This document shows positions 8,879 to 63,851 of a DNA stretch of 63,851 bases, piece after piece (position 1 is the first letter of the stretch; each line of letters opens with the position of its first letter). The notes under the pieces are model-generated. The model was not told the origin of the DNA and made no database searches. It worked only from the letters and a program-made list of their open reading frames with translations. The stretch comes from a virus (Duplodnaviria > Heunggongvirae > Uroviricota > Caudoviricetes). A program made the translations under genes and the position numbers. The stretch is taken from IMG/VR virus record IMGVR_UViG_3300028805_000039, positions 1-63,851 of that record; one strand, written 5' to 3'.

Positions 8879-9076
8879 ATGATTTTACATTATACTATCT
8901 TATGGTTTGTTATGATGATTGCTGGTATATTAATGTATGAGCAACCATTAATTACTAAGGTAAAAGGAAAAATGCTTAAAGCTTTATAGCAAATAGGATG
9001 GATGATTATGTTTATTGCTATGCTAGGTTTTATGCATGGCGTATTAAGTCTTATTAAACTTATCCCTCCATTATAA
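8879..9076 (+). CDS. small membrane protein (one TAG=Gln codon)
   Basis: ATG 8879 after a GGAGAG RBS. The product MILHYTILWFVMMIAGILMYEQPLITKVKGKMLKAL-Q-QIGWMIMFIAMLGF... ends at TAA 9074-9076. Confidence 0.45.
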
Positions 9077-9082
9077 AAGAAA

Positions 9083-9115
9083 AAAGTCAATGGATTATTC
9101 CATTGACTTTTTTCT
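9083..9115 (+). terminator. rho-independent terminator (AGTCAATGG...CCATTGACT + T-run)
   Basis: Perfect 9-bp stem followed by TTTTTTCTTTTTTT. Confidence 0.65.
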
Positions 9116-9137
9116 TTTTTTATTATATAATAATCAT
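9102..9137 (+). promoter_or_regulatory. sigma70-like promoter TTGACT-N17-TATAAT embedded in the terminator tail
   Basis: The descending terminator arm supplies the -35 element. Same cassette design as at 27399-27454 and 43990-44038. Confidence 0.5.
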
Positions 9138-9164
9138 ATATAAAATAAAAAAGGAGTTCTAAAT

Positions 9165-9590
9165 ATGATTATTGAAGATTGGAATAATGATTTAGGAATG
9201 GCTCAATGTATCATTGAAGATACTTCAACTAATGGGGTAACATTACGAGGATATGGAAAAGCAACTTGTCATGATGATGATAAATAGTGGAAAAGTGAGT
9301 TTACTGGAAAATATATCGCAATGACTCGTGCTCAAATTGATATTCTTCGTAAAAAACGTGATTATGAAATCAAACCAAGTATTATGGCATTAGAGCATGT
9401 TTTATCTACAATGAAACAAAGCAAGAAATATAACCCAAAATCTTATGAAGCAATACGTATTAAAAAAGAATTAAAACATTATCAAGAAGATTTACATATG
9501 ATACAAACTATCATTATTGATGAACAAGAAAATTTAAGACTTTATTTGGCCGGAAAAGACCAATTACATCATTAGGACGAAAATAAATAA
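9165..9590 (+). CDS. hypothetical protein (two TAG codons)
   Basis: AAGGAG RBS before the ATG. The frame runs from 9165 through track ORF 9321-9575 and ends at TAA 9588-9590. Confidence 0.5.
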
Positions 9591-9630
9591 AATAATTTAA
9601 AGAAATTGTATAAAATACATAAGAGAGGAA

Positions 9631-9879
9631 GTGGTTTTTATTCTCAAATATGTATTTTTAGGAATAAGTCTATATGTTCTAATCATTCCAATTTTAGAAT
9701 CATTATCTGCCTTAATTTGCCAAGGTATCGAAGTCCTTAAAGGAAAACTTGTTTATTAGCAAGCAATACTCCAATAGCAAGTTGATGAAATTAGAGCTAG
9801 ACCATCCTCAGGTTCTACTCATGCAATAGGTTTTACGATACCGGCAGAAAGTGAATATTATGAGGAGGAAGAAGAATGA
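9631..9879 (+). CDS. possible small membrane/acidic protein (GTG start, two TAG codons)
   Basis: An open frame whose TGA overlaps the ATG of the PhoH-like gene (ATGA coupling). The start codon is uncertain. Confidence 0.3.
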
Positions 9880-11102
9880 AATTTTATGATACTAGTTCCT
9901 TATTATTAAAAGCTGGAACGCTTTTTGATGAAAACGAAGAAAAATTCGCTATTTCGTCTATAACATTAAAAGAACTTGAAGAAATAAAAACTTCTTTTAA
10001 TAAAGATGCTAATATCAAATACGCTGCTCGTTAGCTGCTTCATCTTTTAGATGAACATGATGGAGAATATGAAATTAGTATTTATAAAGAATCAATGTTA
10101 CAAAAAATTATTGAAAATGATTTACCAATTACTAATGATATGAAAATATTGGCGTCAGCATTAAATTATGACATTTTTGTTACTAATGATTTAGCTTTAA
10201 AAAAAATAGCTCAAATCTTTTTTGATTCCAATAAAATTGAAAGTGTCGGAGAAGATTTTGATAATAATTATACAGGCTATCTTGAAGTTGTAATGGATAA
10301 CTCATAGATGGAAGATTTTTATTCTAACTTAAATAAAAATACTTTAAAAGCATTAATTAACCAATATATTATTATTAAAGACATAAATGGAACTATTGTA
10401 GATAAACGGGTATGGACTGGCGAAACATATAGAAATATTAGTTTTGAAAACTTTAATTCTAACGAATTAGGTCCTATTCGTCCTATGCCCGGAGATGCTT
10501 AGTAGTAGTTTGTGGCAGATAGTTTATGCCACAATAAGATAACGGTTATACGTGGCCCAGCTGGGTCTGGTAAATCACAATTATCTCTTGGCTGTTTATT
10601 CTGGCTATTAGAAAGACGTAAAATTGAGAAAATTATTATCTTTTGTAATACAGTTGCCGCAAAAGGGGCTGCTAGGCTAGGATTTTTACCTGGTACAAGA
10701 GAAGAAAAGTTATTGGATAGCCAGATAGGAAATTTCTTAATAAGTAAATTAGGAGATAGAATAGAAGTAGAAAGATTAATTGATGATAATAAATTATTGT
10801 TATTACCAATGGCAGATATTCGTGGTTATGATACAACGAGTATGAATGCAGGAATATATATAACAGAAGCTTAGAATTTAGATCGAGATTTAATGAAATT
10901 AGCACTTCAACGCATAGGAGAAGATTGTATCTGTATCATTGATGGAGATGAAAAAACTTAGGTAGATGATGTAGCTTTTGCTGGGGCAAACAATGGTATG
11001 CGTAGAATGTCAAAAGTATTTCGTGGACATGATGTTTATGGAGAAATTGAATTAAAGAAAATCTATCGTTCTAAAATAGCTGAAATTGCTGAAAATATTT
11101 AA
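9876..11102 (+). CDS. phoH: PIN domain - PhoH-like ATPase fusion (YlaK-like), six in-frame TAG codons
   Basis: Walker A GPAGSGKS, GFLPGTREEK, and motifs IYITEA-Q-N (PhoH DEAQN) and KT-Q-VD (PhoH TQID) where TAG sits exactly at conserved Gln positions. The N-terminus matches a PIN domain (ITLKELEEIK...ARQLLHLLDE). Confidence 0.8.
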
Positions 11103-11103
11103 G

Positions 11104-11132: not shown

Positions 11133-11156
11133 TAAGTCAAGAAAGGAGGAAAACAT

Positions 11157-11657
11157 ATGACAGTACAAGAACAATTATGGCAATATTTTATTAACAAAGG
11201 TTTTACTCCACAATCTATTGCTGGCATTATGGGTAATGTAGATGAAGAAAGTAAATTTTAGCCAAATGCTGTATAGAAAAATAATTTATATACAAATGCT
11301 TCATATACTAATATGGTAGATACTGGTATATATAGTAATTTTATTCATGATGATTTAGGATATGGTTTAGTTCAATGGACTTATGATGCTTTTAAACAAG
11401 ATTTATATAATAGATGTAAATCAGCAAATAAATCAATTGCTGATTTAAATTGTCAACTTGATTAGATGTATGCTCATTTATAGAGTGAAGGACTATTAAA
11501 TCAAATGAAAACTTTTACTTCTATAAAAGAAGCGACTATTTTTTATATGTTGAGATTTGAAAAACCATAGGATTAGAGTGATGATGCTCAAAACAAAAGA
11601 ATTGAAGCAGCTCAAAAATGGTTTAATATATTTAATAAAAATAAATAGTAGCAATAG
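11157..11657 (+). CDS. phage tail-lysozyme-like (PF18013-like) cell wall hydrolase domain protein
   Basis: AAAGGAGG RBS. Contains FTPQSIAGIMGNVDEES and GYGLVQWTY motifs and six internal TAG codons. The frame ends in TAG TAG CAA TAG and runs without TAA/TGA into the amidase gene, so the boundary is uncertain. Confidence 0.5.
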
Positions 11658-11669
11658 GGAGGTAAAAAA

Positions 11670-13604
11670 ATGAAATATTCTCAATCAAATCCTCCATTAG
11701 TATGTATGATGACAAATTCTACTTGTTATCAATCAACAAACTAGATGCAAGTTAAAGGAGTCCTCTGGCATAGTACTGGGGCAAATAATAAAACAATAAA
11801 AAGATATGTTCAACCAACTGAAGGTGATCCAAATTATGCTTACTTAATGAATTTAATTGGTAAAAATACTGGCGCAAATGATTGGAATCATATTTCCATG
11901 TAGGCTGGTTTAAATGCTTGGATAGGAACACTAGCTGATGGATCTGTTACTTCTGTTCAAACAATGCCTTGGGATTATAAGCCTTGGGGATGCGGTTCAG
12001 GTAGTAAAGGCAGCTGTAATAATGGTTGGATTCAATTTGAAATTTGTGAAGATAGTCTTGTTGATGGGACATATTTTTATAAAGTCTATCAAGAAGCATG
12101 TGAATTAACCGCTTATTTATGTAAATTATACAATATAAATCCTCTTGGAAATGTTCTTTTTAATGGCACAACTGTACCAACAATTTTATGCCATCAAGAC
12201 AGTTACCAATTAGGATTAGGAACAAATCATAGTGATGTATACCATTGGTTCAATAAATATGGCAAAACTATGGATAATGTTCGTAAAGATGTAGCAAATT
12301 TATTAGGAATTAATATTAATACTAATTCTCCAATTAACGATAATGTTTCCGTTATGATGTTAAAACGAGGAATGAAAGATAATCCTCAAATTAATTTATT
12401 ACAAGAAAAATTAATTGAACTTGGATATAATGTAGGACCAAAAGGAGCAGATGGAAACTTCGGCCAGGCTACTGAATTAGCAATTAAAACTTTTCAATAG
12501 AAAAATGGATTAACTCCTAATGGAGTATTTGGCGCAGAAACATTTTTAGCTATGAAAAAAGCATTAGAAATGAAAAATTCTATAGTAGCTCCATTAATCA
12601 ATAAAGAAGAAATTTATAGAGTCCGTAAAGCATGGAATCAACCAGGCACACAAGTTGGAGCCTATAAAAATTTAAACAATGCAAAAGAAACAGTTGATAA
12701 ATTACCTGCTGGATATCATGTATATGATAACAATGGTTCAGAAATTTACCCAATAGTTTCTTCTGCTATTACAAATAATAAAACTTCTAATAGTAGTGTT
12801 GCCGTAAATCTTCCAATAGCAAAAACTTACTCTGGTGTAAAACTAGCATCTTCTTCAAAAGATGAGAATGGTAGATATACTGGTGGATAGCGTGGGGACC
12901 AAACTGGAAGGGAAGTATATATTTTAGATTGGTATCGTAGTGGTTGGAATTATGTATTAAGACCAAAAACTCAAAGATTAGCTGAAAATATTGCTCGTGC
13001 TGCTGAGGCAGGGTGTGCTAATGACAATATCGGTTATAGTCAAGGGGCAAGAAATACATTATATATAGAAGCTCAAAAAGTAGGATTAGATTTATCAAAA
13101 ATAACAACTCCTTGTGATTGTGATTGTAGCTCATTTGTCAGTATTTGCTGTATTTGTGCTGGTTTATCTCCAAGTATTTTTTATGCTGATGGAAATATGA
13201 GAACTACTTATAATATGAAATAGGCATGTGAAGCAACCGGATAGTTTTTAGTATTATCCGGCAATCAATACATTGGTCAAAAAGATTATTTAAAACGTGG
13301 AGATATTTTACTTAATTCTAATTCTCATGTAACTATTGTCCTTTCCAATGGAGATTGTGTAGAAGATTTAACAAGTTAGTTTGAAACTTCAACAACTCAA
13401 CCTATTATTAGTGGAACTAGTTATACTGTTCAAATTACAGTACCATTTTTAAATATTCGATTAAATCCTAATCCTGATGGAAAAATAGTTGGACAAGTTA
13501 AATATAATCAAATATTTACTATCGTCCAAGAGGAAGGAGGATATGGTAAACTTAAATCTGGTGTTGGCTGGATAGATTTAAGATATACCAGAAAATTATC
13601 ATGA
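11670..13604 (+). CDS. multidomain endolysin: N-acetylmuramoyl-L-alanine amidase (Amidase_2/PGRP) + PG_binding_1 + hydrolase domain + SH3-like
   Basis: GGGAGG RBS with 7-nt spacing to ATG 11670. PG_binding_1 motif LGYNVGPKGADGNFGQATELAIKTFQ-Q-KNGLTPNGVFG with TAG at the conserved Gln. The C-terminus has an SH3-like fold. Eight in-frame TAG codons; ends at TGA 13602-13604. Confidence 0.75.
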
Positions 13605-13915: not shown

Positions 13916-13920
13916 TTTTT

Positions 13921-13966: not shown

Positions 13967-13975
13967 TTTTTATAT

Positions 13976-14091: not shown

Positions 14092-14538
14092 ATGAGAATA
14101 TACTATACAGATGGTTCTGCCACAGGAAATGGTACTGAAAATTCTATTGGCGGTTTTGGAATCGTTGAAGTAGATGAAAATGATAATATCCTTTGGGAAT
14201 ACCAAGAAAATAATTTAAAATATGAAACAAATAATTCTATGGAATTAACTGCTATTTTGTATGCTTTAAATCATATAGAAGTTGAAGAAGCCTCTTTTAT
14301 GAAACCAATTATTTATAGTGATAGTGCTTATTGTGTAAATCTTATAAATGATTGGATGTATAGTTGGGAACGAAATGGGTGGAAACGTCCTAAAAATCAA
14401 GAGGTTAAAAATTTAAATCTTATTAAACAAATTTTTGAATTAGCTGATTTAGCAGAAATAAGAAAAATAAAAGGACATGCTAGCAATAAGTGGAATGAAT
14501 ATGCAGATAAATTAGCAACAGGAGTATATAAAATATAA
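14092..14538 (+). CDS. rnhA: ribonuclease H (RNase HI)
   Basis: YTDGS, TNNSMEL, YSDSAY and KIKGHASNKWNEYADKLA catalytic motifs. Confidence 0.8.
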   Translation: MRIYYTDGSATGNGTENSIGGFGIVEVDENDNILWEYQENNLKYETNNSMELTAILYALNHIEVEEASFMKPIIYSDSAYCVNLINDWMYSWERNGWKRPKNQEVKNLNLIKQIFELADLAEIRKIKGHASNKWNEYADKLATGVYKI

Positions 14539-14822
14539 TGAAAATTAATTTTTTACCAGTAAATATTTATATTAGTCGTAATGAAAGATTTTTTGCTAAA
14601 ATACAATGGTTTTTATATAAAAATTTTGATATGAAAAGAACTGTTCCTTGTGGGCAAACTAAAAAAAATAAATATTTATGGTGTGCCCAGCCAACTGATG
14701 AAGAACATTGCTATTATAGTAAAGAAGATAGAACAGAAGTTAGATGTAAATGTTGTAATCAATTAAAAATAATGAGCAATCAACCTATTGATTTAAAAAA
14801 AATTCATGAAGAAGGCTTTTAA
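14538..14822 (+). CDS. Cys-rich zinc-finger protein
   Basis: 94 aa with multiple CxxC motifs. Start overlaps the rnhA stop. Confidence 0.5.
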   Translation: MKINFLPVNIYISRNERFFAKIQWFLYKNFDMKRTVPCGQTKKNKYLWCAQPTDEEHCYYSKEDRTEVRCKCCNQLKIMSNQPIDLKKIHEEGF

Positions 14823-14823
14823 C

Positions 14824-14852
14824 TTGACTTTAATTAAAAAATATGATATAAT
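14824..14852 (+). promoter_or_regulatory. sigma70-like promoter TTGACT-N17-TATAAT
   Basis: Consensus match. Confidence 0.55.
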
Positions 14853-14885
14853 ATAGTATAAAAAAATTAAAATAGGAGAAATCTT

Positions 14886-15218
14886 ATGTTGAATGAATTA
14901 TTAAGACGATGTTGGACATGTCCAGTATGTGGGCGGATTCTATATCGTCCTTTAAAAGGTTATTGGTGTCCATTTTGTGGGCATAATTTATCTGCTGATG
15001 AATAGGAAGATAATTTAGATTTATCAACAAGAATTACTGCTCGTGATGAAAATGGAGTACCATATTATTGTGGAGAAAGAGGACTTAGACAAAGAACATA
15101 TGCTCATGATATGGACGTAAATATTATCGCAGAAATATTAGAAAAACTTTGTCAATATGAAGAAATTGAAGTTGAAAATGATAGAATAATTGATGAATTA
15201 ATAAATTAGGAGGATTAA
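14886..15218 (+). CDS. zinc-ribbon protein (two TAG codons)
   Basis: CWTCPVCG...CPFCGH motifs. Ends at TAA 15216-15218; the next gene starts at GTG 15219 with an AGGAGG RBS. Confidence 0.5.
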
Positions 15219-15941
15219 GTGAATAAAATAATAAATAATCTTCAACTTAAATATTATATTCATGATCCAAATAATATATTAAGTGAAGAAGAAATATTAA
15301 AATTTAAAAAAATATTTTTAAATAAAGATTTTAAAACTTTTACCGAATTACGAGAAAGTGAAAAATATGAGAAATGCGCTGGATTAGATAAAGACGATAA
15401 AAATGTCTATCACCTTTATCAAATTATGCCTTGGTTTGGTTATTTATATTATGAAGATAAATGTATTGGTAATATTGATTTAACTTCTGAGGATGGATTC
15501 AATCTTATTACTCATGTTTATTTGCATGCTCGTGAGCAAGTATATGAATTATTTACAAATGATAATATTAATCTTAATTGTGATATATAGTATGTGATTC
15601 ACAATTATAATGATCATATTGAAACAAAAGATTTAATTAAAGGCGTTGTTGCAATTAGAGATAAAGATTTTAATGCTTATCTTGAATTAATAAGTAAATA
15701 TCCAAATGTTTATGGTTATACAAAAGATGATTATGCATATATGGTAGAATATTTTCCTGATCATGCAAATATTTTATACAATAATAAATGTATTGGAGAA
15801 TTATTTATTGTCTCAGAAGAAAAAGATAAAGATGGCAATTATCATTTAATTAATAATAATGGTATGAATTTTATTACTTCATATAAAATAGATAATAGTG
15901 ATTATTGGTCAGATAAGGAAATTGTAAGATGGGAAATATAA
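15219..15941 (+). CDS. hypothetical protein with an internal tandem domain duplication (one TAG at the junction)
   Basis: The two halves share YxxYxxxNKCIG(N/E)(I/L) motifs. Track ORFs 15219-15590 and 15594-15941 are in frame and separated only by a TAG. Confidence 0.5.
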
Positions 15942-17842
15942 AAGATAAAACTTTATATACAGAAGAATCAATTGAATCATTATCTCCGCTTGAATTTACT
16001 CGTTTAAGACCAGGAGTATACGCAGGTGATACGACATATGCTACACAATTGGCTGTCGAAATTTTTTCTAATGCTGTTGATGAATTTCGTCTTGGACATG
16101 GAGATAAGATTGATGTAGATATTAAAGGGCCAAGAGTAAGAATACGAGATTATGGGCAAGGTTTTATTCCTAATAGTTTTCGTGATGATGGAAAAACAAT
16201 TCTTGAAGCAGCATTTAGTGTTTTAAATACTTCTGGTAAGTATCGTGAAGATGGTACTTATGAAGGTACTTCATTGGGTTCTTTTGGTATTGGTTCTAAA
16301 ATTACTACTTATCTTTCACATTGGTTAGAAGTATATACTTATAGAGATGGAGAATCAGAATTTTGTTCTTTCACAGAAGGCGTCTTTAATGAACGTAAAT
16401 CAGCTAAAGTAGATAGTTCTGTGCATGGAACTGATGTAACATGGGAACCTAGTGAAGAATTTTTTACACATCCAGAAGTAAATGTAAATGAATTAAAAAC
16501 TTTATTTAAGACAATAGCGGCTTTATGTCCTGGATTAACTATTAATTTAGATGATAATGGTAGTAAAACAACTTATTTCTCTAAAAACGGTATTAGTGAT
16601 TTAGTTGATGAAGCAGTTGAAGGAAAAGAATTAATTAAAAATCGTTTTGTTATGAATTATCAAAATGATAAAAATAAAATTGATATGGTTATGACATATA
16701 CATCTAACTATTCAATGAATTTAATTCCTTATGTTAATACAGGTTTAACAGCAAATGGACCACATATTTCACAGATTAAATCTCTTTTAACTCGTGAATT
16801 TAATAAATTTTTCCGTGATAAAAAATGGTTAAAGGAAAAAGAAGAAAATCTTTCTGGTGAAGATATACAAGAAGGACTTTATATTGTATTTAATATTACC
16901 GCTCCAAATGTAGCATATGATGCTCAGGTAAAGACAAGAGTCACTAAATTAGAAATGATTCCTTTCACTTCGGCAATCGCAGAAGAACTTCGTATCTGGT
17001 TCACAGCAAATGAAAAAGATATTAAAATGATTGCTGATAAAGCGTTAGGGGCAAGAAAAGCAAGATTAGCCGCACAAAAAGCAAGAGATAATGCTCGTGA
17101 AGGCCAAAAGAAAAAGGAAAAAGCTTTAAAATTTGATAGTAAATTAGCTGATTGTTATAGTAAAGATCGCAAAAAGTGCGAAATTTATATTACAGAGGGC
17201 GATAGTGCGAGTGGTAAATTAAAAGAAGCCAGAGACAATGAATTTCAAGCAATTATGCCAGTCCGAGGCAAAATTTTAAATACTCAAAAAGCAACCATTG
17301 ATAAAATACAGAAAAATGCTGAAATTATGTCAATGATTCAAGCTTTTGGTCTTGAAATTGATTTAAAAACAATGAAAGTGACATATCATCCAGATAAAAT
17401 TCGATATGGGAAAATTATTATTATGAGTGATGCTGATGTTGATGGTGCTCATATTAAAAATTTGTTTTATACTTTTATTTGGAATTTCTGCCCTCAATTA
17501 ATTCAAGATGGTTATATCTATGCTGGTGTCCCGCCACTTTATAAAGTTACAATGGCTAAAAAATATTATTATTTAAAGAATGATAATGCTTTAGAAGAAT
17601 TTCGTAAGAAAAATGCTGGTAAGAATTACATTGTAAATCGTATGAAAGGTTTGGGCGAAATGGATGCTGAAGAAGTTGAAGAAACTTTAATTAGCCCAGA
17701 AGGTAGAATTATTCGTCAAGTTACTGTAAATGATATTCCAACTACTAATAAATTATTTGATGATTTAATGGGCACAGCTGTAGTTCCACGTAAATTGTAT
17801 ATTAAAGAACATAGTAAAGAGGCTACTTATAATGCAGAATAA
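15929..17842 (+). CDS. type II DNA topoisomerase, ATPase/TOPRIM subunit (GyrB / T4 gp39-like)
   Basis: GHKL ATPase N-terminus, TOPRIM motifs (EGDSASG, IMSDADVDGAHI). No TAG codons. Confidence 0.8.
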   Translation: MGNIKDKTLYTEESIESLSPLEFTRLRPGVYAGDTTYATQLAVEIFSNAVDEFRLGHGDKIDVDIKGPRVRIRDYGQGFIPNSFRDDGKTILEAAFSVLNTSGKYREDGTYEGTSLGSFGIGSKITTYLSHWLEVYTYRDGESEFCSFTEGVFNERKSAKVDSSVHGTDVTWEPSEEFFTHPEVNVNELKTLFKTIAALCPGLTINLDDNGSKTTYFSKNGISDLVDEAVEGKELIKNRFVMNYQNDKNKIDMVMTYTSNYSMNLIPYVNTGLTANGPHISQIKSLLTREFNKFFRDKKWLKEKEENLSGEDIQEGLYIVFNITAPNVAYDAQVKTRVTKLEMIPFTSAIAEELRIWFTANEKDIKMIADKALGARKARLAAQKARDNAREGQKKKEKALKFDSKLADCYSKDRKKCEIYITEGDSASGKLKEARDNEFQAIMPVRGKILNTQKATIDKIQKNAEIMSMIQAFGLEIDLKTMKVTYHPDKIRYGKIIIMSDADVDGAHIKNLFYTFIWNFCPQLIQDGYIYAGVPPLYKVTMAKKYYYLKNDNALEEFRKKNAGKNYIVNRMKGLGEMDAEEVEETLISPEGRIIRQVTVNDIPTTNKLFDDLMGTAVVPRKLYIKEHSKEATYNAE

Positions 17843-18011
17843 TAATCCTTATGAATATGCTGAATTAAGAGAAGAAATTCATTATATTTTGAATGATTTT
17901 TTTAAATATGAATATGAACTTTTTAAAAATGGTGAATTTGATCATGAATTTTTAGAAGTATCTACAGATAATATTTTAAGATTAATTAGACGTCAAGGAG
18001 GACAAGTATAA
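17832..18011 (+). CDS. small hypothetical protein
   Basis: 59 aa. ATG overlaps the gyrB-like stop and its own stop overlaps the next ATG. Confidence 0.4.
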   Translation: MQNNNPYEYAELREEIHYILNDFFKYEYELFKNGEFDHEFLEVSTDNILRLIRRQGGQV

Positions 18012-20368: not shown

Positions 20369-20406
20369 TGGAAATTAAAGAATTTAAATTAGTAGAAATG
20401 AGTTCC

Positions 20407-20432
20407 TATAGCCCTGATTAGGGCTATAGGAA
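20407..20432 (+). repeat. perfect 10-bp stem hairpin (CCTATAGCCC-TGATTA-GGGCTATAGG)
   Basis: GC-rich palindrome after the topoisomerase gene with no T-run following. Confidence 0.5.
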
Positions 20433-20500
20433 ATGGTATGAGTTTCAACCACAATACGATAATAAAACAGTTTATATTAATTTAGGAGAAATAAATAAAA

Positions 20501-20698
20501 ATGCTGGCAGAGCAGATAACACTTAATCATATTCAACATTATTATTGTCAAATAGAAGCTATTGATAGAATTTTAGAACAATATGATTTTACTTGGCATG
20601 ATTTATGGGCAGTATTAGAAAATGCTAAACCATTTTTTAATCATGGTGGTCATCTTTTAAATATTTATAATAATAAGGAATTAAATCAAAATGAATAA
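20501..20698 (+). CDS. hypothetical protein
   Basis: 65-aa ORF ending in TAA. Confidence 0.4.
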   Translation: MLAEQITLNHIQHYYCQIEAIDRILEQYDFTWHDLWAVLENAKPFFNHGGHLLNIYNNKELNQNE

Positions 20699-20708
20699 AC
20701 TTGATTAG

Positions 20709-33277: not shown

Positions 33278-33404
33278 ATCTTATTAGAAGATTTTGAAAT
33301 AATAAGAAGGACACAATGGGATTTTTAAATCTCCTCGCGACGAAAACAACTGGCAAAACCGTATTCCAAAATTAAAAATTGTTTTGGAAATTTTTAGAGT
33401 AAAT

Positions 33405-49364: not shown

Positions 49365-49479
49365 ATATATTTTAAAAATTCTTTATTATATTTAAATATC
49401 TTTATGCAATGTAAACATTTTAAAATTATTGAAGATTTCTTAAAATCAGAAATAGAAGGAATAAGGGGGTAATGTTATA

Positions 49480-50230: not shown

Positions 50231-50268
50231 AAAAATGGTAGATTATTTTTTAATCTACCATTTTTTTT
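50231..50268 (+). terminator. rho-independent terminator (TGGTAGATT...AATCTACCA + T8)
   Basis: Perfect hairpin after TAA 50221-50223. Confidence 0.7.
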
Positions 50269-50744
50269 ATATAATTTTTATAAGTATTATTTTTATTTAA
50301 ATTAATTAAAAATATTTTTTTAAAAATTATTATTTTATTTAAACTTTTTATTTTTATATTTATATTAAAAATATTCTAAAATATCTTTTTAATTTCATTA
50401 TTATCATATTTGTCCTAAGATAACAAAATTAATAATAATATATCTTTTTTAATATTTTTATGCTGCTTTTTATAATAACAATTAATAAAATGATAACTAT
50501 TATTATTTAAAAAAGTATTAAAATAATAATTAGGTTTTATACCATTTAATCCTTTAAAAAACAAAACTAAACAATCACTTTCTTTATTATAAAAGCTAAA
50601 TAAATCTGGTATATAATATAAATAATCAAAAATTAAATTATAAAATTCTATATTCTAATTAATTTGATCTTTATAATTAAAAAATAAATTTTTTAAATAA
50701 TTAAAATTATTATTAACTAAATATTGCTAAGTACTATAAATAAA

Positions 50745-52087: not shown

Positions 52088-52130
52088 AAAAGCTCATATG
52101 ACGATAATTGTCATATGAGCTTTTTATTAT
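52088..52130. terminator. bidirectional terminator (AAAAAGCTCATATGAC...GTCATATGAGCTTTTT)
   Basis: Perfect 16-bp stem flanked by A-run and T-run at the end of the minus-strand tail module. Confidence 0.7.
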
Positions 52131-52294
52131 TTTATTTTAATCCAAATTCTATTATTAACTTCAATATTATCAGAACCCCAATTTTTATAATTTGGAATTT
52201 CACTAACAATACCAATAATACAATCAGGATACATACAAATTTCTTCTCTAGTCATAATATCAACTGTACCATTCGGAGCAGAACAAACTGCCAT
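52127..52294 (-). CDS. possible small Cys-containing protein at the end of the tail module
   Basis: ATG 52294 in the same frame as the upstream fiber gene, 24 codons after its TAA. Ends in TAA TAA. No clear RBS. Confidence 0.3.
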   Translation of the reverse strand: MAVCSAPNGTVDIMTREEICMYPDCIIGIVSEIPNYKNWGSDNIEVNNRIWIKIK

Positions 52295-52366
52295 ACCAGC
52301 GTGATAATTGTCTCGATCCTAATAAGGATATACTAATACTCGTCCTGCGACAGCCAATGGAGTCTA

Positions 52367-56098: not shown

Positions 56099-58915
56099 TT
56101 AGTGAGTAGTAATACCAAAAACATCAGTATAACTGATATGGCAAGTTCCATGATAAAAAGTAGTTACTTTAATACGGTAATATCCAGGGTCATTATTAAT
56201 TTCAAATGTTAGATTACCATTTGTATCCATAACAATTTCACGCAAATCTTCTTCTCCGTAAAACTCATAAGGAACTTGAGTACCAGGAACATGACCATCA
56301 CTATCAGGGATACGAGGAATTACAATATCATTAACAATATCGTATTCAACCTCTTCTACATAATATTTAGTAACAATATCTTCTACTTTGTATTTAGTAT
56401 TATCGATATTTGTATTATTAACGATATTAAAAGTATAACGAGGATGAATTCGATTAATTTCTAAATTCACTAAAACTTTCTATCCATCAACGACAGGTCG
56501 ATCACCATCAACTAAAACTTCTTGATAACCAGCTGTAGGACGATCTTCATCATCACGATCCCAAATAGCACCAGCTATAGTTAATTTTCTATTTTCTGGA
56601 GCAACAAATGAAGTCGTAATAGTTTGAGCCTATTCAGTATCAGAGATACTATATGTTCCATTTCGACGATTAATAATACGAGCTAAATAAGTTCCTTCTC
56701 CTTCTTCTGGAGTGAAAACAAATTTACCATCGACTGGTAAACGATTAAAGGTATAAGGACCTTTTTCAATGTCATCTTTAGTAATTTGAGCTACTTTTCC
56801 TTCAGAATCAGTTTTTATTAATTCAGCTGCAAAAGCTCCTTGGCTATCTTCAATATGCTCAGAAGGAATAGTAACTGTAGCAATTAAAGTTGGCATTTGA
56901 GTATCATCTAAATAAACAAATTCAGGACCATCATAATCTTCTTGTCTAATAATTGTCCCACCATCTGCATCAAACTCATATTCTGATCCAACTTCTAAAC
57001 TAACTTCTGGCTATACAGCAGGAGGGATTGTTAAAACTGAACTTTCTACAACAGCACTATTTCTAGCAGCACTAGTGAAAATATAAAGTTCTTTCCCTTG
57101 TCCAGCAGCAATTGAAGCTAATTCATTGCTAACAGGATTTAATTTATCAATATTACCATTTTCATCTTTCAAGTAATAATTTGTATTAACTTTTAAATTA
57201 CTTGTATCTAATACTTTTTCATAATGATCTCCAACACTGATTCTTGCTTGTGCAGCAACTTGATAATTGCCAGCTGCCAATGCACGATAAGAAGAGCCAC
57301 GAATAGCAAATCTAGGTTTATCACCATCGTTAGTTACAACAGAATTAATATTATCAGTGTTAGCTGATGGGTCAATTCCATCATAATAAATACTAAATTG
57401 AGTATCTTTATAGCCATCTTTTGTTAAAATAATTGTCCTTGGTACAACCTAAAGACTATTAGCTTTTGCCCAAAAGATTATATGCCCGGCTGGTAAACCA
57501 GCTGATGAAGCTTCAATAACATCATTAGCATCTAATGGATAACCATTCCAAGTAACTCCAACAATTGTTTCAAGACCTGTATCAATATCAAGAGCAACCC
57601 ATTTTGCTTCTCCCTGATCGGGATCGGTAGATGCAAAAGTATTTAATTCATCAAGGCTAACCATTTTAACGATATTGCCATGTACATCAACAATAATATT
57701 ATCTTGATTTTCTTGACTTTGTTCTGTTTTTTCTGTATCATTAAAATCTACTGTATTAGTTAATTTTGTTATTCTTAAAGGTAAATAAGAAATAGAATCA
57801 TCTTGTTTATATTCATCTAATTTTGCCTTAGCTTCAGCCCACGTTAATACATGTTCAGTATTAATTTGTCCAGATTCATCTTTAAAGTAATAATGTTCTC
57901 CATTATCTTCTGCCGGTAATTGGACTTCAATATAATCACTAGATAAATTAACTGTATTAAAGTCACGTCCCATTGCTACATTACTATTTAATGGACTTTC
58001 TGTCCATTTATAAGTTACGTCAGCAGTAGCTGGATTTACAATAGCATAAGCAGTTAATAAAGCTCCTTGTTCATATATATTACGTAAATCTTCTTCTGGC
58101 GCAAAATAAGCAACTTTTTCTAATCCCGTATAATTTCCATTTTCATCTTTATCGCCAGATTTCCAAACAGGAGTTCCAACAGGAGAAATAGTATTATCTT
58201 GATAGACACTATTTGTGAAACGATTTAAATAATTATCAATTTCATCATGAATAATAGAAGGATTAGTTAAAGTTAAAGTATCATTAATAACAACAGATGC
58301 TGTTAAAGTATTGAAACTATAATCAATAACATTACTATTAGTAGTATAAAAAGTAACAGAAAAAGTAAGGACCCCACGTCCTTTAGTCATATTTTTATCA
58401 ATAATAAAACCAAAAGTAACTTTTTCTGGATTTAAGTCTGCATTTGGCGCGAAGGCTGGAACAGCTTGTGGTTCATCAAATATAGGAGTTTTTGCCCCTA
58501 TAGGAGTAAAATTCCAGTTAATAGCAACATTAGTATTCAATAAATCCTAACTATCAAAATATCTGTCTATATTTAAAACAATCATTTCAGCATTATGATC
58601 GCCATAAACGCCAATGCCATTTTTCTTTACCCCAGCTGGAACAGAAATAGTACGAGTATTTGCGTCAATTTCAAAAATTTCTTCATCAGCAGGCATAAGA
58701 AGTAAATAGCCACCACGAATACCAGTAATGTTTCCTTCAGAATCCTAACGTTGATTAACTAATAAAGGAATAATATCAGAAGTAAGATTGTTAAAATAAT
58801 CTTCTAAAGAATGAATTCTTAAAGGATTACCTGCTGTTTCTAAAGCTTGATTTATTAATTCAAAAACTGGTGCATAATAAAGTCCAGAATTTTCAGCAGT
58901 TAATTTTGTAATCAT
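56099..58915 (-). CDS. large tail/baseplate structural protein, 938 aa, about 17 TAG codons
   Basis: Minus-strand frame continuous from ATG 58915 (in-frame TAA at 58976-58978 upstream) through track ORFs 57449-58540, 57011-57280, 56630-56896 and 56099-56470 to TAA 56099-56101. Shares a YYLKDxNGNIxK...ASIA motif with the 52367-55252 protein. Confidence 0.6.
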
Positions 58916-58950
58916 AGACTTTTTTCTTCCTTTCTCATATATTTTTAAAG

Positions 58951-58981
58951 TAATAAGAGAGATTTTTTCTCTCTCTTATTA
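58951..58981. repeat. intergenic hairpin (AATAAGAGAG-ATTTTTT-CTCTCTTATT)
   Basis: Perfect inverted repeat between two minus-strand structural genes. Confidence 0.45.
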
Positions 58982-59011
58982 CTTTTATAAAAACTTATAA
59001 TTCAATCAATT

Positions 59012-59215
59012 TTATTTGGCCGGAATTTCTTGCCAATTTGCAACTTCATCTTCAGGAACTTTAATAGAATATACCTATTTTGTCCCATCAGTTAAAACTT
59101 TCCCAGGATCAGCATATAAAGCTATAATACGAACATAATATATATCTTCTAAATGCACTGGAGATTCAATAACTCCATTTGTCCCAAGATATTTATAAAA
59201 AATTTCTTTAGTCAT
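59012..59215 (-). CDS. small hypothetical virion-module protein (one TAG)
   Basis: ATG 59215 with a GGAGGATGG RBS; 67 aa; ends at TAA 59012-59014. Confidence 0.45.
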
Positions 59216-59235
59216 TATTTGCCATCCTCCTTTAT

Positions 59236-62200
59236 TTAATGATGAACAATTGTAAAACGTAATAGAGCTCTACCAGTTGGTCTACACTTCTCGCTTAAAA
59301 TATCTTCTAAATCTGCATCAGCCATTCCGTGATGATCATGATAAGTAATCATAATAGGATCTCTATATGTATCATTAAATCCACCATTCTAACTACTTTC
59401 ATTTAAAATACCATATGTAATATTTGTCCAATCAGCACAATTTAAGGTTGTATTAGAAACACTACCAAATGTAATTCCACCTGGAATAGCGCATCTAGCA
59501 AAAGCACCTTGAGCAATTGATATTATATTTGGTAAATTAATACTCTTTTGTCCTAAGACATGAGCACCTTTCGTTGTATGTGATATAGTTCCCATTGATA
59601 AGAATGCATCAGCTTCAATATTTGTAATATTAGCAAAAAATTTATTCATATCATCCTAAGTAATTCCATTAAATAAATTACGAGTTTGATAAAAACTACG
59701 ATAGAAGACTTTTGTGCCAGCATTTGGTAATTCAAAATATTTTAATTTATCCCAATAAGCGCAAGCATAGCGTCCAACGCCCTCTAAAGTACTTCCATTT
59801 TCCCAGAAAATATGAGTAATTTCAGTAGGACGATTAGTTGCTCGTTCAGAGACTTCTGAAGCTTCATTAAAATAATTAATGATAGTGCCATTTACTTCTT
59901 TTGGAAGTGTGATTTTACCTTTTAATTTATAAGCTGCTGGGGCAAGATTCAATACATTATAAGCTTTACCTCCAGTAGAGAAACGTGTTATTGTATAATA
60001 CTAAGAGTCTCTTAAAACATTATCATATACACTTTCTTCTTCAAAAATGGCGTAATAAGTTAAATTTGATTCTACTCGTTTAATGCTTAAATCTTTTATA
60101 TCTCCATTTGGTTCTTGTGCCCATCCTTTAAAGGCATAAGTCTAAGTTAATGGCAAGGCTGAATCATCTTTATATGGAATGCCATCTGGCTAATTTACTA
60201 TATCTCCATATGGAGTTTGAATTACAATTGGTTCATTATCAATATAAAAAGTAATATCAAAAGGATGAGGTACATATTTAGCAAATAAAGTAATAGTAGT
60301 TTGTTCTGGTGAAAAACTAATATTATCCCAAGTCTCGGTAGTTGTATAATCATTAGTAGATTCATTGTAAATTAAAACAACTTCAGTATTTATATTAACT
60401 AAAGGATCTTCTAAGCACCAGCCTACAAAATCATAATTATTTCTAACAAATAATTCATTTGTAATACTATTAGGATGAGTAATATTTGAACCATATCGAA
60501 TTAAATCAATTTCTTCATCTCTGCCGTCATATCTATAAATATATTTTACAATATTTGATTCTCGAATATATTTAGCATATAATTTTAAATTCGGGAAGAA
60601 TGCTTGAATTTCTTTAATTCCAAGTCCAGTTTCTTCATTAGTTTCATCTATTAAATGTTCTTCATCATTACTAATATACATAACACCGCTTATATTAGGT
60701 TTAGTAATATCTTCAGTATCTTTTGTATTTCTATAATGGTTGTCTGAAACAGATGTTGCATTTTTACAATCTATAATAATTAATTTTAATAAATCAAGAT
60801 TAGAAATTAAAGATTCTTTTTCCTACATCTAAGGAGAATTATCATATACAAATAATTTATTATTTAATTTTAATAAATCCCATTTATCTTGAGAATGATT
60901 TGTATATTCAATAAAATTATTATGATCTGTTAACTCATAAAATGTTTTATTTTCATCATATTCAGTATCTGATTCGATGTTTGAATATGGACTCCAATTA
61001 ACATTATCATAATTAATAGCTAAGAAACTATTTGGTCTAAACTTTTCTCTAATATCAACAGCATTATCTAACAGTATATATGAATCATAACCTAAATTAA
61101 CGTCTGTTAAATTTAAAGTAGCAACTTTTGAAATACGTTTAGAAAGCTCAATTTCAGGGATACTGCCAACAGCTATAGATTTATCCCAATCTGTAAGATT
61201 TTCAATATATAAACCTTTATAAGTATCCAATGGTTTATAGCTATATCCATCTATATTATTCTCTTCCATAATAACTGGATAAGATGTTAAGATATTATTT
61301 AAATTTTTAGCATGGACAATATTTACAGAAGTTACAGACTAAGGCAAATGGACTGTATCTAAAGGAGAACCATCAGCAAAAATAACAGAAGGAATAGCTG
61401 TATTTAGAGCTCTAAATTCTCTTAATTTTTCTGAACCAGAAACATCTTGTCCTTCTGATAATGCTACGAGTCCAGTTAATACAATCTTCTATAGCAAACC
61501 TTTCTTATTTGTACCAGTAGCTCTATCATTTAAATCAAAAGTACCAGATTCTTTTCCGATAATACCATTTTTATAGCCTGGGGCATCACTTCCAATTAAT
61601 AACTAAGTTAATCGTTTACCTGTGTTAAGCTTAAAGTGAGATGGATATTTAAGACTCAAATCTCCTAAATCAGAAATATAATCTCCACCAGGAATATATG
61701 TTAATTGCTCATTATAAGGATGAATAGATTTATACCCATTTAAAACAGATGGTGTAGTATGAGTTGTAACAGCATTAATTCCATCAAATTTTATAGTAGG
61801 TGTTAAAGGATCTTCATCATAAAAAACAGTAACATATTGCGCTAAAAATGGAGTAATTTCAAATTCTGGAACAGCATCATAAAACTTTTTAGGATAATGA
61901 ACTCTTTCATATCCAGCTACATCATTCGCTACTTTAGTTTTATCTAAATATGTATCTGAAGTAGAAATATCATTAGCATTAGCACGAATCATAATTTCTG
62001 TTTTATAACCAGAAGATGTTGAATCATAAGCTCCTGCTAACCACCAAGAATCAAGATAATTTAATCTATTACGAATAAATAATTCTCTTGATAATTTTCT
62101 ATCTCCCTAACAAGTATAAACATATGAAGCATCTGTTGTTTTCTATTGTCCATTTTCATAAGACTATACATAAAATCCATATCGACGATCAGTTCCGTTA

Positions 62201-63851
62201 TACCAATTTCCTGTCTATTTACCAGGAGCAATATACTTATACCATTCATCAAGACCTAAAGCAATAACCGGACGAACACCACGCATAGCATAAGAATTGG
62301 AGAATACAGATGGGTCACATAAATAAGCTCCTTCAATTGTTGTTTCAGTTAAACGAGAAGATTTACGTAAAGCTCTATATTTTTCTTCAATTTCTTTACG
62401 GAATCCAGCAAAGAAATTAGTCCAAAGAACACTATTAGCAGTAGAAAATGTTCCGTCAATTGATGCATCAGTATCATAATCCCATAATACAGCACCAATA
62501 TTATTTAAACCTAACTATGTATCAATATCATAGAAAATTGGGAACCAGATATAATCTCCGCCAAGACGTTTTGGCCCCCAGGTAGCAATCATCATATTTT
62601 TCCCACGAGAGTCATAGCATAATAATAACTCTGTTAAAATAAAATAAATTAAACAATACTCTAAATCTAAATGAGATGAAAACTCTTTAACAAATTTCTT
62701 TAAACGATAACCAGCACAATCAGTGGTATAAGTAATTAAAGTATCGTCTTTTGAACGAACTGTACCGGTATAATTGTTAGGAGCGAGAGCCTTTGTCATT
62801 ATATTTTCGCCATCTTTTTCATAAACATAAAATTTATTGGCATCTTCTAAAACTACATCAGAAACTTTTACTAATAAGTTACCTTCAATATCGACATAAT
62901 AGGCTACATCAACACCGTCTTCATGAACTGTTTCTACCATATAATAAATAGTATTATCAAAAGTTTGAGGCTCAGCCAATGGGATACCAGTATCTGTAGA
63001 TGGCACAGCAGTCGTATCAGTTGAATCTAACCAATTAAATAATACTTCTAAATTACTAAATTTTTCTCTTACATATTCATTTTTCTTTTGATTAGTAGAT
63101 AAATCTCGTACACTTCCATCGGCCATTTTGATGGCTGTAGTATCATTATATCCTAATTCAGCAGCTGAAGTAACTCCTGTAGCATATTCAAACTGATCAG
63201 CTTCATTATTATATCTTACTTCAAAATGCTTTGCAACTTCTAAACCGCCTTCGGCTGTTGTAGTCGCAAAACCAGTTGTTCTTTCAGTAACGCCAGGATA
63301 TTTAAAAGATGTCCAAGTGCCTTGATTATCCCTTAATTCCCAGCACTCAGCTACATCGGCTATACTTTTTTCTCCATCTACATAAGGATGTATAGTATCT
63401 AATTCAAAACCATAAAATTCATTAGAACTTTTATCTAAGTTTAAATTATAGCGACCTATATATTCATAAGCTAAAAATTCTTGATCTTCATTTAACTATT
63501 TATCAGCTGGTGTAGAGTGTTTATGGAATACTAAGCATGGGAAACCATATACAGATGTTCTATATCCTCTGCCATCATTATCAAATCCAGGATATTGAGA
63601 TAATGGATGATAATTATACATACTATTACCAACAAGATTGGCAAAACCAGTATTGTATGTGCCAGAAGATTCCATATAGTCAATTTTCCATGTAAATTTA
63701 TTAGTACAACAAACTTCATTATCCATATACCACTTTTTAAAAGCGCATCTATTTAAAGCTGCATCTCGTTCCTCTTGAGATGCATTTGTTCCATCTGGAT
63801 TTTTCCCAGTCAACCAAGTATTATAATCATCTTTATATGGGCCATTAGTAT
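59236..63851 (-). CDS. very large structural protein (more than 1538 aa, N-terminus outside window), about 27 TAG codons
   Basis: One minus-strand frame joins track ORFs 63496-63813, 62515-63126, 61603-61992, 60829-61269, 60190-60681, 59656-59952 and 59389-59649. Each is separated only by TAG. The frame runs to TAA 59236-59238 and is still open at the window end. Confidence 0.6.

What the first reader, a model, noticed from the sequence alone, without database searches (positions are those of the whole stretch)
8879..63851. Genome-wide reassignment of TAG (amber) to glutamine (code 15)
Dozens of essential genes are split only by in-frame TAG. Reading TAG as Gln restores single long frames and places Gln exactly at conserved Gln positions. 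The PhoH-like protein has IYITEA-TAG-N (PhoH DEAQN) and KT-TAG-VD (PhoH TQID). The PG_binding_1 domain has TF-Q-TAG-KNGL (conserved FQxxxGL). The NrdG CxxxCxxC context and the radical-SAM CNL-TAG-CKYC are also restored. Genes terminate with TAA or TGA. This matters for any annotation: standard code-11 calling would give about 150 fragments instead of about 60 genes.
Basis: partly seen in the sequence, partly recalled or inferred. Interest (0 to 1): 0.85.

Follow-up and report, generated by a model that had tools for sequence, protein, structure and literature searches.

The report
Phage that reads TAG as glutamine
This is part of a roughly 152-kb uncultured gut or rumen phage that reads the TAG stop codon as glutamine in most of its genes; this trick is already documented in other phages, so it matters mainly for annotating the sequence correctly.

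Summary

- **ORF structure.** Reading through TAG raises ORF coverage from 80% to 96%. It cuts ORFs of at least 60 aa from 116 to 68. Reading through TGA does nothing.
- **Extent.** 36 of 43 genes from 8879 onward carry in-frame TAG, 192 in all. Pfam domains such as NrdD, PhoH and DnaE run across them unbroken.
- **Amino acid.** In 34 standard-code relatives, the 48 alignable TAG sites align to Gln 40% of the time. True CAA/CAG codons do so 44.5% of the time, and the Gln background is 3.3%. Gln beats every other residue by at least 25 nats, and 8 of 9 conserved columns are Gln.
- **Independent homologs.** Solved PhoH (3B85), SPbeta YorL, an Enterococcus phage polymerase and cellular NrdDs agree.
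- **Correction: the recoding is modular, not uniform.** Window 1-8878 (plus about 9 kb upstream) and 14080-22700 (RNase H, gyrase, ligase) are almost TAG-free and keep CAG. The lysis, replication and structural modules use TAG for 27-45% of Gln.
- **Mechanism not found.** No suppressor tRNA, RF2 or GlnRS was found in the window or its accessible flanks, so the decoding machinery is inferred.

The phenomenon is well documented, and public gene calls on this contig's relatives already use TAG→Gln. This is a new member of a known kind.

The parts
1..8878 (+). TAG-poor module. It holds small hypothetical genes, adenylosuccinate synthetase, two metallophosphoesterases and an AAA_33 kinase. It is compatible with the standard code.
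   Evidence: 2 TAG in 2568 codons. CAG is retained (20 CAG against 39 CAA). The 9.4 kb upstream on the source contig looks the same: 4 TAG in 2943 codons.
8879..9076 (+). Small hydrophobic ORF of 65 codons with one in-frame TAG. It is the first recoded gene and opens the lysis module. It looks holin-like, but that was judged by eye from the sequence and not tested.
   Evidence: Read directly from the sequence. It is preceded by an AGGAG ribosome-binding site and followed by a terminator hairpin at 9075-9118.
9876..11102 (+). PIN-PhoH ATPase with 7 TAG. These include a TAG-TAG-TAG run at 10500-10508 and the two motif TAGs at 10872-10874 and 10959-10961.
   Evidence: Pfam PIN_4 plus PhoH. 3B85 has Q at both motif positions, DEAQN and TQVD.
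11157..13604 (+). Multidomain endolysin (lysozyme2, amidase_2, PG_binding_1, ELLD, SH3_3) with 16 TAG.
   Evidence: Five Pfam domains are recovered only when TAG is read through. The PG_binding_1 TAG at 12498-12500 aligns to K, K, A, K and E, not to a conserved Q.
14092..22673 (+). It holds RNase H, GyrB (0 TAG in 637 codons), GyrA (0 in 785) and NAD-dependent ligase (1 in 660).
   Evidence: 4 TAG in 2670 codons. A terminator at 13927-13965 and a perfect TTGACA-17-TATAAT at 13975-14003 sit just upstream.
23327..24478 (+). GIY-YIG endonuclease with a long N-terminal region that Pfam does not match. It has 13 TAG in 383 codons.
   Evidence: Pfam GIY-YIG. TAG makes up 46% of its Gln-class codons.
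28157..29707 (+). DnaB-type helicase with 9 TAG.
   Evidence: Pfam DnaB and DnaB_C.
31712..33328 (+). RecJ-like DHH exonuclease with 7 TAG.
   Evidence: Pfam DHH and RecJ_OB. Sites 124, 280 and 522 are Q in 9/11, 12/12 and 12/13 standard-code relatives.
35612..39352 (+). DnaE-type polymerase (PHP, pol3_alpha, finger, HHH_6) with 6 TAG.
   Evidence: Pfam annotation. Sites 379, 780 and 1171 are Q in SPbeta YorL and Enterococcus phage VRE9_3, and in 16/19, 15/20 and 17/18 standard-code relatives.
40006..42276 (+). Anaerobic ribonucleotide reductase NrdD with 9 TAG.
   Evidence: The NRDD profile is covered 2-562 of 562 in one stretch. Sites 214 and 365 are Q in 34/34 standard-code viral loci and in 15/15 and 16/16 MAG contigs.
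42273..42752 (+). NrdG activase with 3 TAG. None of them lies in the CxxxCxxC motif.
   Evidence: Fer4_12 covered 2-137 of 137. The sequence was inspected.
48225..49472 (+). Radical-SAM enzyme with 6 TAG. One lies inside its cluster motif, CNL-TAG-CKYC, at 48306-48308.
   Evidence: Pfam Radical_SAM.
50250..51764 (-). YcaO-domain protein with 14 TAG in 504 codons.
   Evidence: Pfam YcaO. TAG makes up 56% of its Gln-class codons.
52127..55252 (-). Large protein with no Pfam match, probably structural. It is the most heavily recoded gene: 27 TAG in 1041 codons.
56099..58915 (-). Large protein with no Pfam match, probably structural. It has 6 TAG.
59236..63849 (-). C-terminal 1537 codons of a roughly 2400-aa protein, probably a tail or host-recognition protein. 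The gene runs off the window end. It has 16 TAG.
   Evidence: Homologs are 2300-2550 aa long and many carry LRR_5. There is a weak List_Bact_rpt hit.

Best explanation
The window is about 42% of an uncultured tailed phage of roughly 152 kb and 29% GC. By polymerase similarity it is distantly SPbeta-like or Enterococcus-phage-like, and it probably infects a Gram-positive gut or rumen bacterium.

**Shown.** In most of its genes TAG is a sense codon for glutamine, and TAA and TGA remain the only stops (translation table 15).

**Shown.** The recoding is modular. Two blocks are written almost without TAG, so an unmodified host ribosome can translate them:
- window 1-8878 plus at least 9 kb upstream
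- 14080-22700, holding RNase H, gyrase and ligase

The lysis cassette, most replication and nucleotide-metabolism genes and the structural genes use TAG for 27-45% of their Gln-class codons (TAG, CAA, CAG). These genes have almost lost CAG.

**Inferred, not shown.** A phage-encoded amber suppressor tRNA with anticodon CUA, charged by the host glutaminyl-tRNA synthetase, is made during infection from a part of the genome outside the window. Until then, TAG-containing messages are terminated by host RF1. That would delay lysis and virion proteins relative to the TAG-free module. This is the timing model of Borges et al.
For: **ORF structure.**
- Reading through TAG raises ORF coverage from 80% to 96%. 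Reading through TGA does not.
- Full-length Pfam domains run across TAGs.

**Identity of the amino acid.**
- In 34 standard-code relatives, Q occupies 40% of cells at 48 TAG sites. True Gln codons give 44.5% and the background is 3.3%.
- Q is the best residue by at least 25 nats, and 8 of 9 conserved columns are Q.
- Window TAG, CAA and CAG sites behave alike against standard-code relatives: Q fraction 0.40, 0.46 and 0.36.
- Q appears at the motif or conserved TAG sites in PDB 3B85 PhoH, SPbeta YorL and VRE9_3 and cellular NrdDs.

**Relatives.**
- TAG-recoded relatives share TAG at 9.3% of the window's TAG sites, against 1.7% at its CAA sites.
- A syntenic relative, L001, has 0 in-frame TAA or TGA but 66 in-frame TAG across 17 called genes, and the database protein has Q at each TAG.

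**Modularity.**
- TAG per 1000 codons is 0.8 and 1.5 in the two poor blocks, against 18.1, 11.2 and 15.5 in the others.
- CAG is 34% and 14% of CAA+CAG in the poor blocks, against 4-7% elsewhere.
- Module boundaries coincide with terminator hairpins followed by near-perfect sigma-70 promoters at 9075-9131, 13927-14003 and 22670-22949.

**Precedent.**
- Code 15 has been confirmed by mass spectrometry in crAss-like phages (PMC9523058).
- Modular recoding, and clades that mix codes 11, 15 and 4, are described in bioRxiv 10.1101/2021.08.26.457843.
- This lineage shows the same mix: 34 standard, 28 TAG-sense and 8 TGA-sense loci.
Against: - No tRNA of any kind is in the window. ARAGORN found none, with introns allowed or with a relaxed threshold. 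Rfam found none at E up to 1.
- None is in the 9.4 kb upstream of the window on the source contig.
- None is in about 25 kb upstream in a close relative whose Thg1-like protein is 92% identical.
- None is in 10 kb beyond the window end in more distant relatives.
- No release factor or aminoacyl-tRNA synthetase domain is in the window.
- So the decoding machinery is not demonstrated. About 63 kb of the 152-kb contig could not be read.
- There is no protein-level evidence.
- Replication genes (DnaB, RecJ, DnaE) also carry TAG, so a simple split into early standard-code genes and late recoded genes does not fit cleanly.
- TAG-rich modules also have sigma-70-like promoters.
Confidence: 0.9

Rival explanations
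1. TAG is a sense codon for a residue other than glutamine: Lys, Glu, Tyr, Trp, Ser, Leu or pyrrolysine.
For: - Some variable TAG columns align mostly to E, T, K, L or Y.
- A distant relative, L094, carries a 90-nt tRNA with a CUA anticodon and a long variable arm. That shape is typical of Ser, Leu and Tyr tRNAs.
Against: - Per-site log-likelihood puts K 25 nats and E 30 nats below Q. Every other residue ranks lower.
- 8 of 9 conserved columns are Q and none is Y, W, S or L.
- CAA plus CAG make up 237 of 593 aligned codons in standard-code relatives. The next most frequent residues are E (50), T (47) and K (42), with Y at 24.
- E and K are the usual substitutes for Q.
- L094's Thg1-like protein is only 57% identical to this phage's, and its fetched stretch looks standard-code.
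Confidence: 0.03
2. The host itself uses code 15. The phage simply matches its host, so it needs no suppressor.
For: No suppressor tRNA, RF2 or GlnRS was found in about 89 kb of this genome or its close relative.
Against: - About 27 kb of the phage is nearly TAG-free while the rest uses TAG for 27-45% of Gln. That is hard to explain if TAG were an ordinary host codon.
- Close relatives use the standard code or TGA recoding.
- The 16 MAG contigs carrying the most similar cellular NrdD gain little or nothing from TAG read-through. Most change by 0.02 or less in ORF coverage, the largest gain is 0.036 and one loses 0.11.
- To my knowledge no bacterium with TAG = Gln is known.
- Borges et al. detected suppressors in only 40% of TAG-recoded phages even with complete genomes.
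Confidence: 0.04
3. TAG still terminates. The fragments are real split genes, pseudogenes of a decaying element, or assembly or sequencing errors.
For: Under code 11 the fragments are individually open frames.
Against: - Only TAG interrupts. There is not one in-frame TAA, TGA or frameshift across 19,231 codons and full-length domain matches.
- The interruptions align to Gln.
- The same pattern occurs in many independent assemblies from other samples.
- Three independent assemblies carry one identical 122-aa protein from the start of the window. The 152-kb contig matches the first 10.9 kb of the window with 13 mismatches.
Confidence: 0.01

Closest known systems
TAG→Gln (code 15) recoded phages. 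Sources: Ivanova et al. 2014 (from memory); crAss-like phages with mass-spectrometry proof, Peters et al. 2022, PMC9523058; phAss-1 or 'Phassvirus', Babkin et al. 2023, PMC10607447.
   Same: - In-frame TAG in conserved phage genes aligns to Gln in standard-code homologs.
- TAA and TGA are kept as stops.
- Only some of the genes are recoded.
- The genome has low GC.
   Different: - It is a different lineage. It has a DnaE-type polymerase 38-40% identical to those of SPbeta and Enterococcus phages. There is no nucleotide match in GenBank phages.
- phAss-1 has three tRNA-Sup(CTA) genes. None was found in the part of this genome I could read.
'Agate' clade and the code-switch timing model of Borges et al. 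(bioRxiv 10.1101/2021.08.26.457843; published in 2022).
   Same: - Genome size is in the 127-154 kb class.
- Relatives come from animal gut samples.
- Close relatives mix codes 11, 15 and 4.
- Recoded lysis and structural modules are scattered among standard-code modules.
- A homing-type endonuclease is heavily recoded here (g35, 13 TAG in 383 codons).
   Different: - Membership was not tested.
- In the Agate genome figured in that paper the replication genes are in the standard code. Here DnaB, RecJ, DnaE and NrdD carry TAG.
- The Agate lineage that paper analysed for codon preference is TGA-recoded.
SPbeta-like and large Enterococcus phages (SPBc2 NC_001884; VRE9_3 PP680569).
   Same: - YorL-type DnaE polymerase.
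- Genome of about 130-150 kb.
- Gram-positive type endolysin domains.
   Different: - Polymerase identity is only 38-40%.
- Those phages use the standard code. This one does not.

Membership tests
Code 15 (TAG→Gln) recoded phage | Conserved genes are interrupted by in-frame TAG only, and reading through restores full-length frames and domains. | tested here: met
   ORF coverage rises from 80% to 96% and ORFs fall from 116 to 68. Single full-length Pfam matches run across TAGs.
Code 15 (TAG→Gln) recoded phage | TAG positions align to Gln in homologs from standard-code organisms. | tested here: met
   Q fills 40% of cells, against 3.3% background and 44.5% at true Gln codons. Q is best by at least 25 nats and 8 of 9 conserved columns are Q. 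PDB 3B85, SPbeta and VRE9_3 and cellular NrdDs agree.
Code 15 (TAG→Gln) recoded phage | TAA and TGA are retained as stops. | tested here: met
   All 68 frames end in TAA (54) or TGA (14). TGA read-through gains nothing (81% against 80%).
Code 15 (TAG→Gln) recoded phage | The phage encodes a suppressor tRNA with anticodon CUA. This is common but not universal: it was detected in 40% of such genomes. | tested here: inconclusive
   None was found in the window, in the 9.4 kb upstream, or in about 25 kb upstream of a close relative. About 63 kb of the 152-kb source contig could not be read.
Code 15 (TAG→Gln) recoded phage | Gln is incorporated at TAG in the protein. | not testable with these tools
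   This needs proteomics.
Code-switch timing model (Borges et al.) | A standard-code-compatible module coexists with recoded lysis and structural modules. | tested here: met
   TAG per 1000 codons is 0.8 (1-8878) and 1.5 (14080-22700), against 18.1 (lysis), 11.2 and 15.5 (structural). The upstream 9.4 kb has 1.4 per 1000.
Code-switch timing model (Borges et al.) | TAG-free genes are expressed before the suppressor, and recoded genes after it. | not testable with these tools
   There are no expression data. Sigma-70-like promoters precede both kinds of module.
Agate clade (Borges et al.) | Placement inside the clade on a large-terminase phylogeny. | not tested
   No terminase gene lies in the window and no reference sequences were available. 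Only circumstantial similarities exist: genome size, the mix of codes among relatives, and animal gut origin.

The most novel reading that the evidence does not exclude
The phage might make TAG readable as Gln without a canonical tRNA(CUA) gene of its own. It could do this by altering a host tRNA-Gln or RF1, or by using a non-canonical RNA. No tRNA, release factor or synthetase was found in about 89 kb of this genome or its close relative. The TAG-free module just upstream of the window encodes a Thg1-like tRNA 3'-5' nucleotidyltransferase.

A second, smaller possibility concerns the tandem TAG runs in the lysis genes: TAG-TAG-TAG in PhoH and TAG-TAG-CAA-TAG in the endolysin linker. They might act as a deliberate translational lock on lysis.
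Probability: 0.08. Interest if true: 0.65.

Novelty: new member of a known kind. Interest (0 to 1): 0.3.

Why it matters
**Practical.** Any code-11 annotation of this contig would shatter 36 genes into up to 233 pieces. It would miss the endolysin, polymerase, NrdD and structural genes. Table 15 must be used.

**Biological.** This adds a Gram-positive-type, DnaE-encoding phage lineage of about 150 kb to the phages that read TAG as Gln. [quoted passage not shown] It also gives a clean example of modular recoding, with CAG nearly lost wherever TAG is used. It does not open a new question. The phenomenon, its distribution and the timing hypothesis are already published, and public gene calls already treat these contigs as code 15.

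Tried and rejected
- **Naive tally against the best protein-database hits.** It gave Q in 120/120 at two sites, but I rejected it as partly circular. The database translates TAG as Q on recoded relatives. I repeated the test at DNA level, restricted to standard-code loci.
- **PDB NrdD structures.** They are too distant. Only site 214 is informative, with Q in 2 of 3.
- **Megablast of 20 kb against GenBank phages.** No match.
- **Suppressor tRNA hunt.** All of the following found no tRNA(CUA) in this phage or its close relatives:
  - ARAGORN on the window, with standard, intron and relaxed settings
  - Rfam at E up to 1
  - the source-contig upstream flank
  - 172 related loci
  - walking upstream in a close relative
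- **Walking by exact DNA pattern.** It returned only a 3.6-kb stretch.
- **Homolog search with g68.** The best hit was only 68% identical, so the window's downstream flank on its own contig stayed unread.
- **Test of whether TAG sites derive preferentially from CAG.** Odds ratio 1.3, p = 0.08. Not claimed.
- **Check of what TGA means in TGA-recoded relatives.** Trp is the plurality residue, so this is ordinary code 4.

Full report
**What is there.** The window is 63,851 bp at 29% GC. It matches a 151,968-bp ENA metagenome contig, ERZ27256871 k141_563452, with 13 mismatches over the 10,913 bp that I could compare. By that mapping the window corresponds to about record positions 48,517-112,367 on the reverse strand. 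Megablast of about 20 kb against GenBank phages found nothing.

By protein, the DnaE-type polymerase is 38-40% identical to those of Enterococcus phages (VRE9, EF1) and SPbeta-like Bacillus phages. The endolysin has amidase_2, PG_binding_1 and SH3_3 domains. The most similar cellular NrdDs are mostly in Erysipelotrichaceae, Bacilli and Bacteroidaceae/Prevotella MAGs, some from rumen samples. A Gram-positive gut or rumen host is likely, but this is an inference.

**Checking the observation.** I compared non-overlapping stop-to-stop ORFs of at least 60 aa.

| Reading | ORFs | Coverage | Median length |
|---|---|---|---|
| Code 11 | 116 | 80% | 100 aa |
| TAG as sense | 68 | 96% | 163 aa |
| TGA as sense | 116 | 81% | 104.5 aa |

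- After dropping nine probably spurious small ORFs, 59 genes (19,231 codons) hold 192 in-frame TAG.
- 36 of the 43 genes that start at or after 8879 have at least one TAG.
- All frames end in TAA (54) or TGA (14).
- With TAG masked as X, Pfam finds single uninterrupted domains across the TAGs. Examples:
  - NRDD 2-562 of 562
  - PIN plus PhoH
  - a five-domain endolysin
  - DnaB and RecJ
  - DnaE (four domains)
  - NrdG (Fer4_12 2-137 of 137)
  - radical SAM, YcaO and guanylate kinase

**Which amino acid.** A first tally against the 120 best database homologs of NrdD looked decisive: Q in 120/120 at two sites. But the close hits come from related phages whose genes were already called with TAG as Q. 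Locus L001 has 9 TAG in its NrdD gene, each a Q in the database protein, and 66 TAG but no TAA or TGA inside 17 called genes. That evidence is partly circular.

I therefore fetched 79 NrdD neighbourhoods from IMG/VR. I classified each by its own DNA, giving 34 standard-code, 28 TAG-sense and 8 TGA-sense loci. I then aligned all window proteins, with TAG as X, to them using tblastn.

Using the standard-code loci only, 48 window TAG sites are covered.
- The aligned residue is Gln in 237 of 593 cells (40%).
- Genuine CAA/CAG codons in the same alignments are matched by Gln 44.5% of the time. The Gln background is 3.3%.
- I scored each candidate amino acid with substitution frequencies learned from the non-TAG columns of the same alignments, weighting each site equally. 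Q wins by 25 nats over K and 30 over E. Every other residue ranks lower still.
- Of nine columns that are at least 70% conserved, eight are Q.
- Codon level: CAA 155, CAG 82, then GAA 43 and AAA 32.
- Window TAG, CAA and CAG sites behave alike against standard-code relatives: Q fraction 0.40, 0.46 and 0.36.

Independent standard-code homologs agree.
- The solved PhoH-like protein 3B85 has Q at both motif TAGs, DEAQN and TQVD.
- SPbeta YorL and the Enterococcus phage VRE9_3 polymerase both have Q at DnaE sites 379, 780 and 1171.
- Cellular NrdDs have Q in 15/15 and 16/16 at sites 214 and 365.

So TAG = Gln stands.

- The PG_binding_1 TAG lies one residue after the conserved Q. Five solved structures have K, K, A, K and E there. 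It is compatible with Gln but not diagnostic.
- The TAG in CNL-TAG-CKYC is at a variable x position.
- The NrdG motif (CDAHCPGC) has no TAG. Its three TAGs lie downstream.
- The recoding is not uniform.

**Modularity.** The table gives TAG density and Gln codon use by block. The last column is TAG as a share of all Gln-class codons (TAG, CAA, CAG).

| Block | Content | TAG per 1000 codons | CAG as % of CAA+CAG | TAG as % of Gln-class codons |
|---|---|---|---|---|
| 1-8878 | small hypothetical and metabolic genes | 0.8 | 34% | 3% |
| 8879-14079 | small hydrophobic ORF, PIN-PhoH, endolysin, another hydrophobic protein | 18.1 | 4% | 33% |
| 14080-22700 | RNase H, GyrB, GyrA, NAD ligase | 1.5 | 14% | 6% |
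| 22701-50240 | replication, nucleotide metabolism, others | 11.2 | 7% | 27% |
| 50241-63851 | minus-strand large, probably structural genes | 15.5 | 5% | 45% |

- The 9.4 kb upstream of the window is also TAG-poor, with 4 TAG in 2943 codons.
- Further upstream in a close relative, a TAG-rich module resumes. The TAG-poor block is therefore about 18-20 kb long.
- Block boundaries coincide with terminator hairpins followed by near-consensus sigma-70 promoters:
  - 9075-9118, then 9103-9131
  - 13927-13965, then a perfect TTGACA-17-TATAAT at 13975-14003
  - 22670-22698 and a perfect match at 22921-22949
- The overall count of promoter-like sites is no higher than in shuffled sequence, so only their placement is suggestive.

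**Mechanism.** The meaning of TAG and its modular use are shown. How it is decoded is inferred. No tRNA was found in any of these places:
- the window, by ARAGORN with standard, intron-tolerant and relaxed settings, and by Rfam at E up to 1
- the upstream 9.4 kb of the source contig
- about 25 kb upstream in a close relative
- 10 kb beyond the window end in more distant relatives

No release-factor or synthetase domain is in the window. About 63 kb of the source contig could not be read with the tools as restricted.

A TAG-recoded relative, L085, has tRNA arrays on both sides of its Thg1-like gene, and they run off the fetched stretch. Borges et al. detected TAG suppressors in only 40% of TAG-recoded genomes. 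The most likely situation is a phage tRNA(CUA) elsewhere in the genome.

The timing model says TAG-free genes are translated first and TAG-containing lysis and virion genes only after the suppressor appears. It fits the TAG-free modules and the very heavy recoding of the lysis block. That block includes a TAG-TAG-TAG run in PhoH (10500-10508) and TAG-TAG-CAA-TAG in the endolysin linker (11646-11657). The model is weakened because DnaB, RecJ, DnaE and NrdD are also recoded.

**Comparison and novelty.**
- TAG→Gln recoding in phages is established. It has been confirmed by mass spectrometry in crAss-like phages (PMC9523058).
- It has been surveyed across gut phages, with clades that mix codes 11, 15 and 4 and with modular use (bioRxiv 10.1101/2021.08.26.457843).
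- It has been described in a 136-kb gut phage with three suppressor tRNAs (PMC10607447).
- This lineage shows the same mix of codes among close relatives. TGA aligns best to Trp in the TGA-sense relatives.
- It resembles the 'Agate' clade in genome size, habitat and mix of codes, but membership was not tested.
- Public gene calls already use code 15 on these contigs.

The finding is correct and matters for annotation. It is a new member of a known kind.

Noticed in passing
L010 14968-15064 (-), L047 18064-18160 (-), L054 17095-17191 (-), L070 195-291 (+): Four related loci carry a 97-nt tRNA with a UCA anticodon, an 8-bp acceptor stem and a long variable arm. ARAGORN calls it tRNA-Sec. L010, L047 and L054 are TGA-recoded by ORF coverage; L070's stretch shows no clear recoding. 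In the TGA-recoded relatives, TGA columns align best to Trp. A selenocysteine-shaped tRNA acting as an opal suppressor would be unusual.
   Followed up: partly
L094 312-401 (+): A distant relative, whose Thg1-like protein is 57% identical, carries a 90-nt tRNA with a CUA anticodon and a long variable arm. That shape is typical of Ser, Leu and Tyr tRNAs. The fetched stretch of this locus looks standard-code.
   Followed up: partly
window 48225-51764: This may be a phage-borne RiPP (ribosomally made, modified peptide) cluster. It has a radical-SAM enzyme (48225-49472, +), a 247-aa protein with a Cys/Ser/Thr-rich C-terminus (49480-50223, +) and a YcaO protein (50250-51764, -). Relative L001 also has YcaO plus two Fer4_12 (radical-SAM-type) genes.
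   Followed up: no
window 10500-10508 and 11646-11657: Tandem amber runs lie in the lysis module. TAG-TAG-TAG sits between the PIN and PhoH domains, and TAG-TAG-CAA-TAG sits in the endolysin linker. They encode poly-Gln linkers. They would also be very strong termination barriers without a suppressor. Whether this clustering exceeds chance was not tested.
   Followed up: no
window 13927-14003, 22670-22949 and 9075-9131: Terminator hairpins are followed immediately by perfect or 11-of-12 sigma-70 consensus promoters. They fall exactly at the borders between TAG-poor and TAG-rich modules.
   Followed up: partly
L081 3800-4591 (about 5-6 kb upstream of window position 1): A Thg1-like tRNA-His guanylyltransferase gene lies in the TAG-free module. 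Its homologs are very common in related phages: more than 599 IMG/VR matches. In L085 it is flanked by tRNA arrays.
   Followed up: partly
window 3409-4578, 39330-39926, 43470-43985 and 44273-45511: The phage carries several auxiliary nucleotide-metabolism genes: adenylosuccinate synthetase, guanylate kinase, nucleoside 2-deoxyribosyltransferase and a xanthine/uracil-family permease.
   Followed up: no
L044, L057, L058, L061, L063, L065, L066, L069-L072, L074, L076, L077, L187-L189 (NrdD match lengths): In many relatives the NrdD match spans about 3.0-3.35 kb instead of about 2.2 kb. This suggests an intron or intein inserted in nrdD. The window's nrdD is uninterrupted.
   Followed up: no
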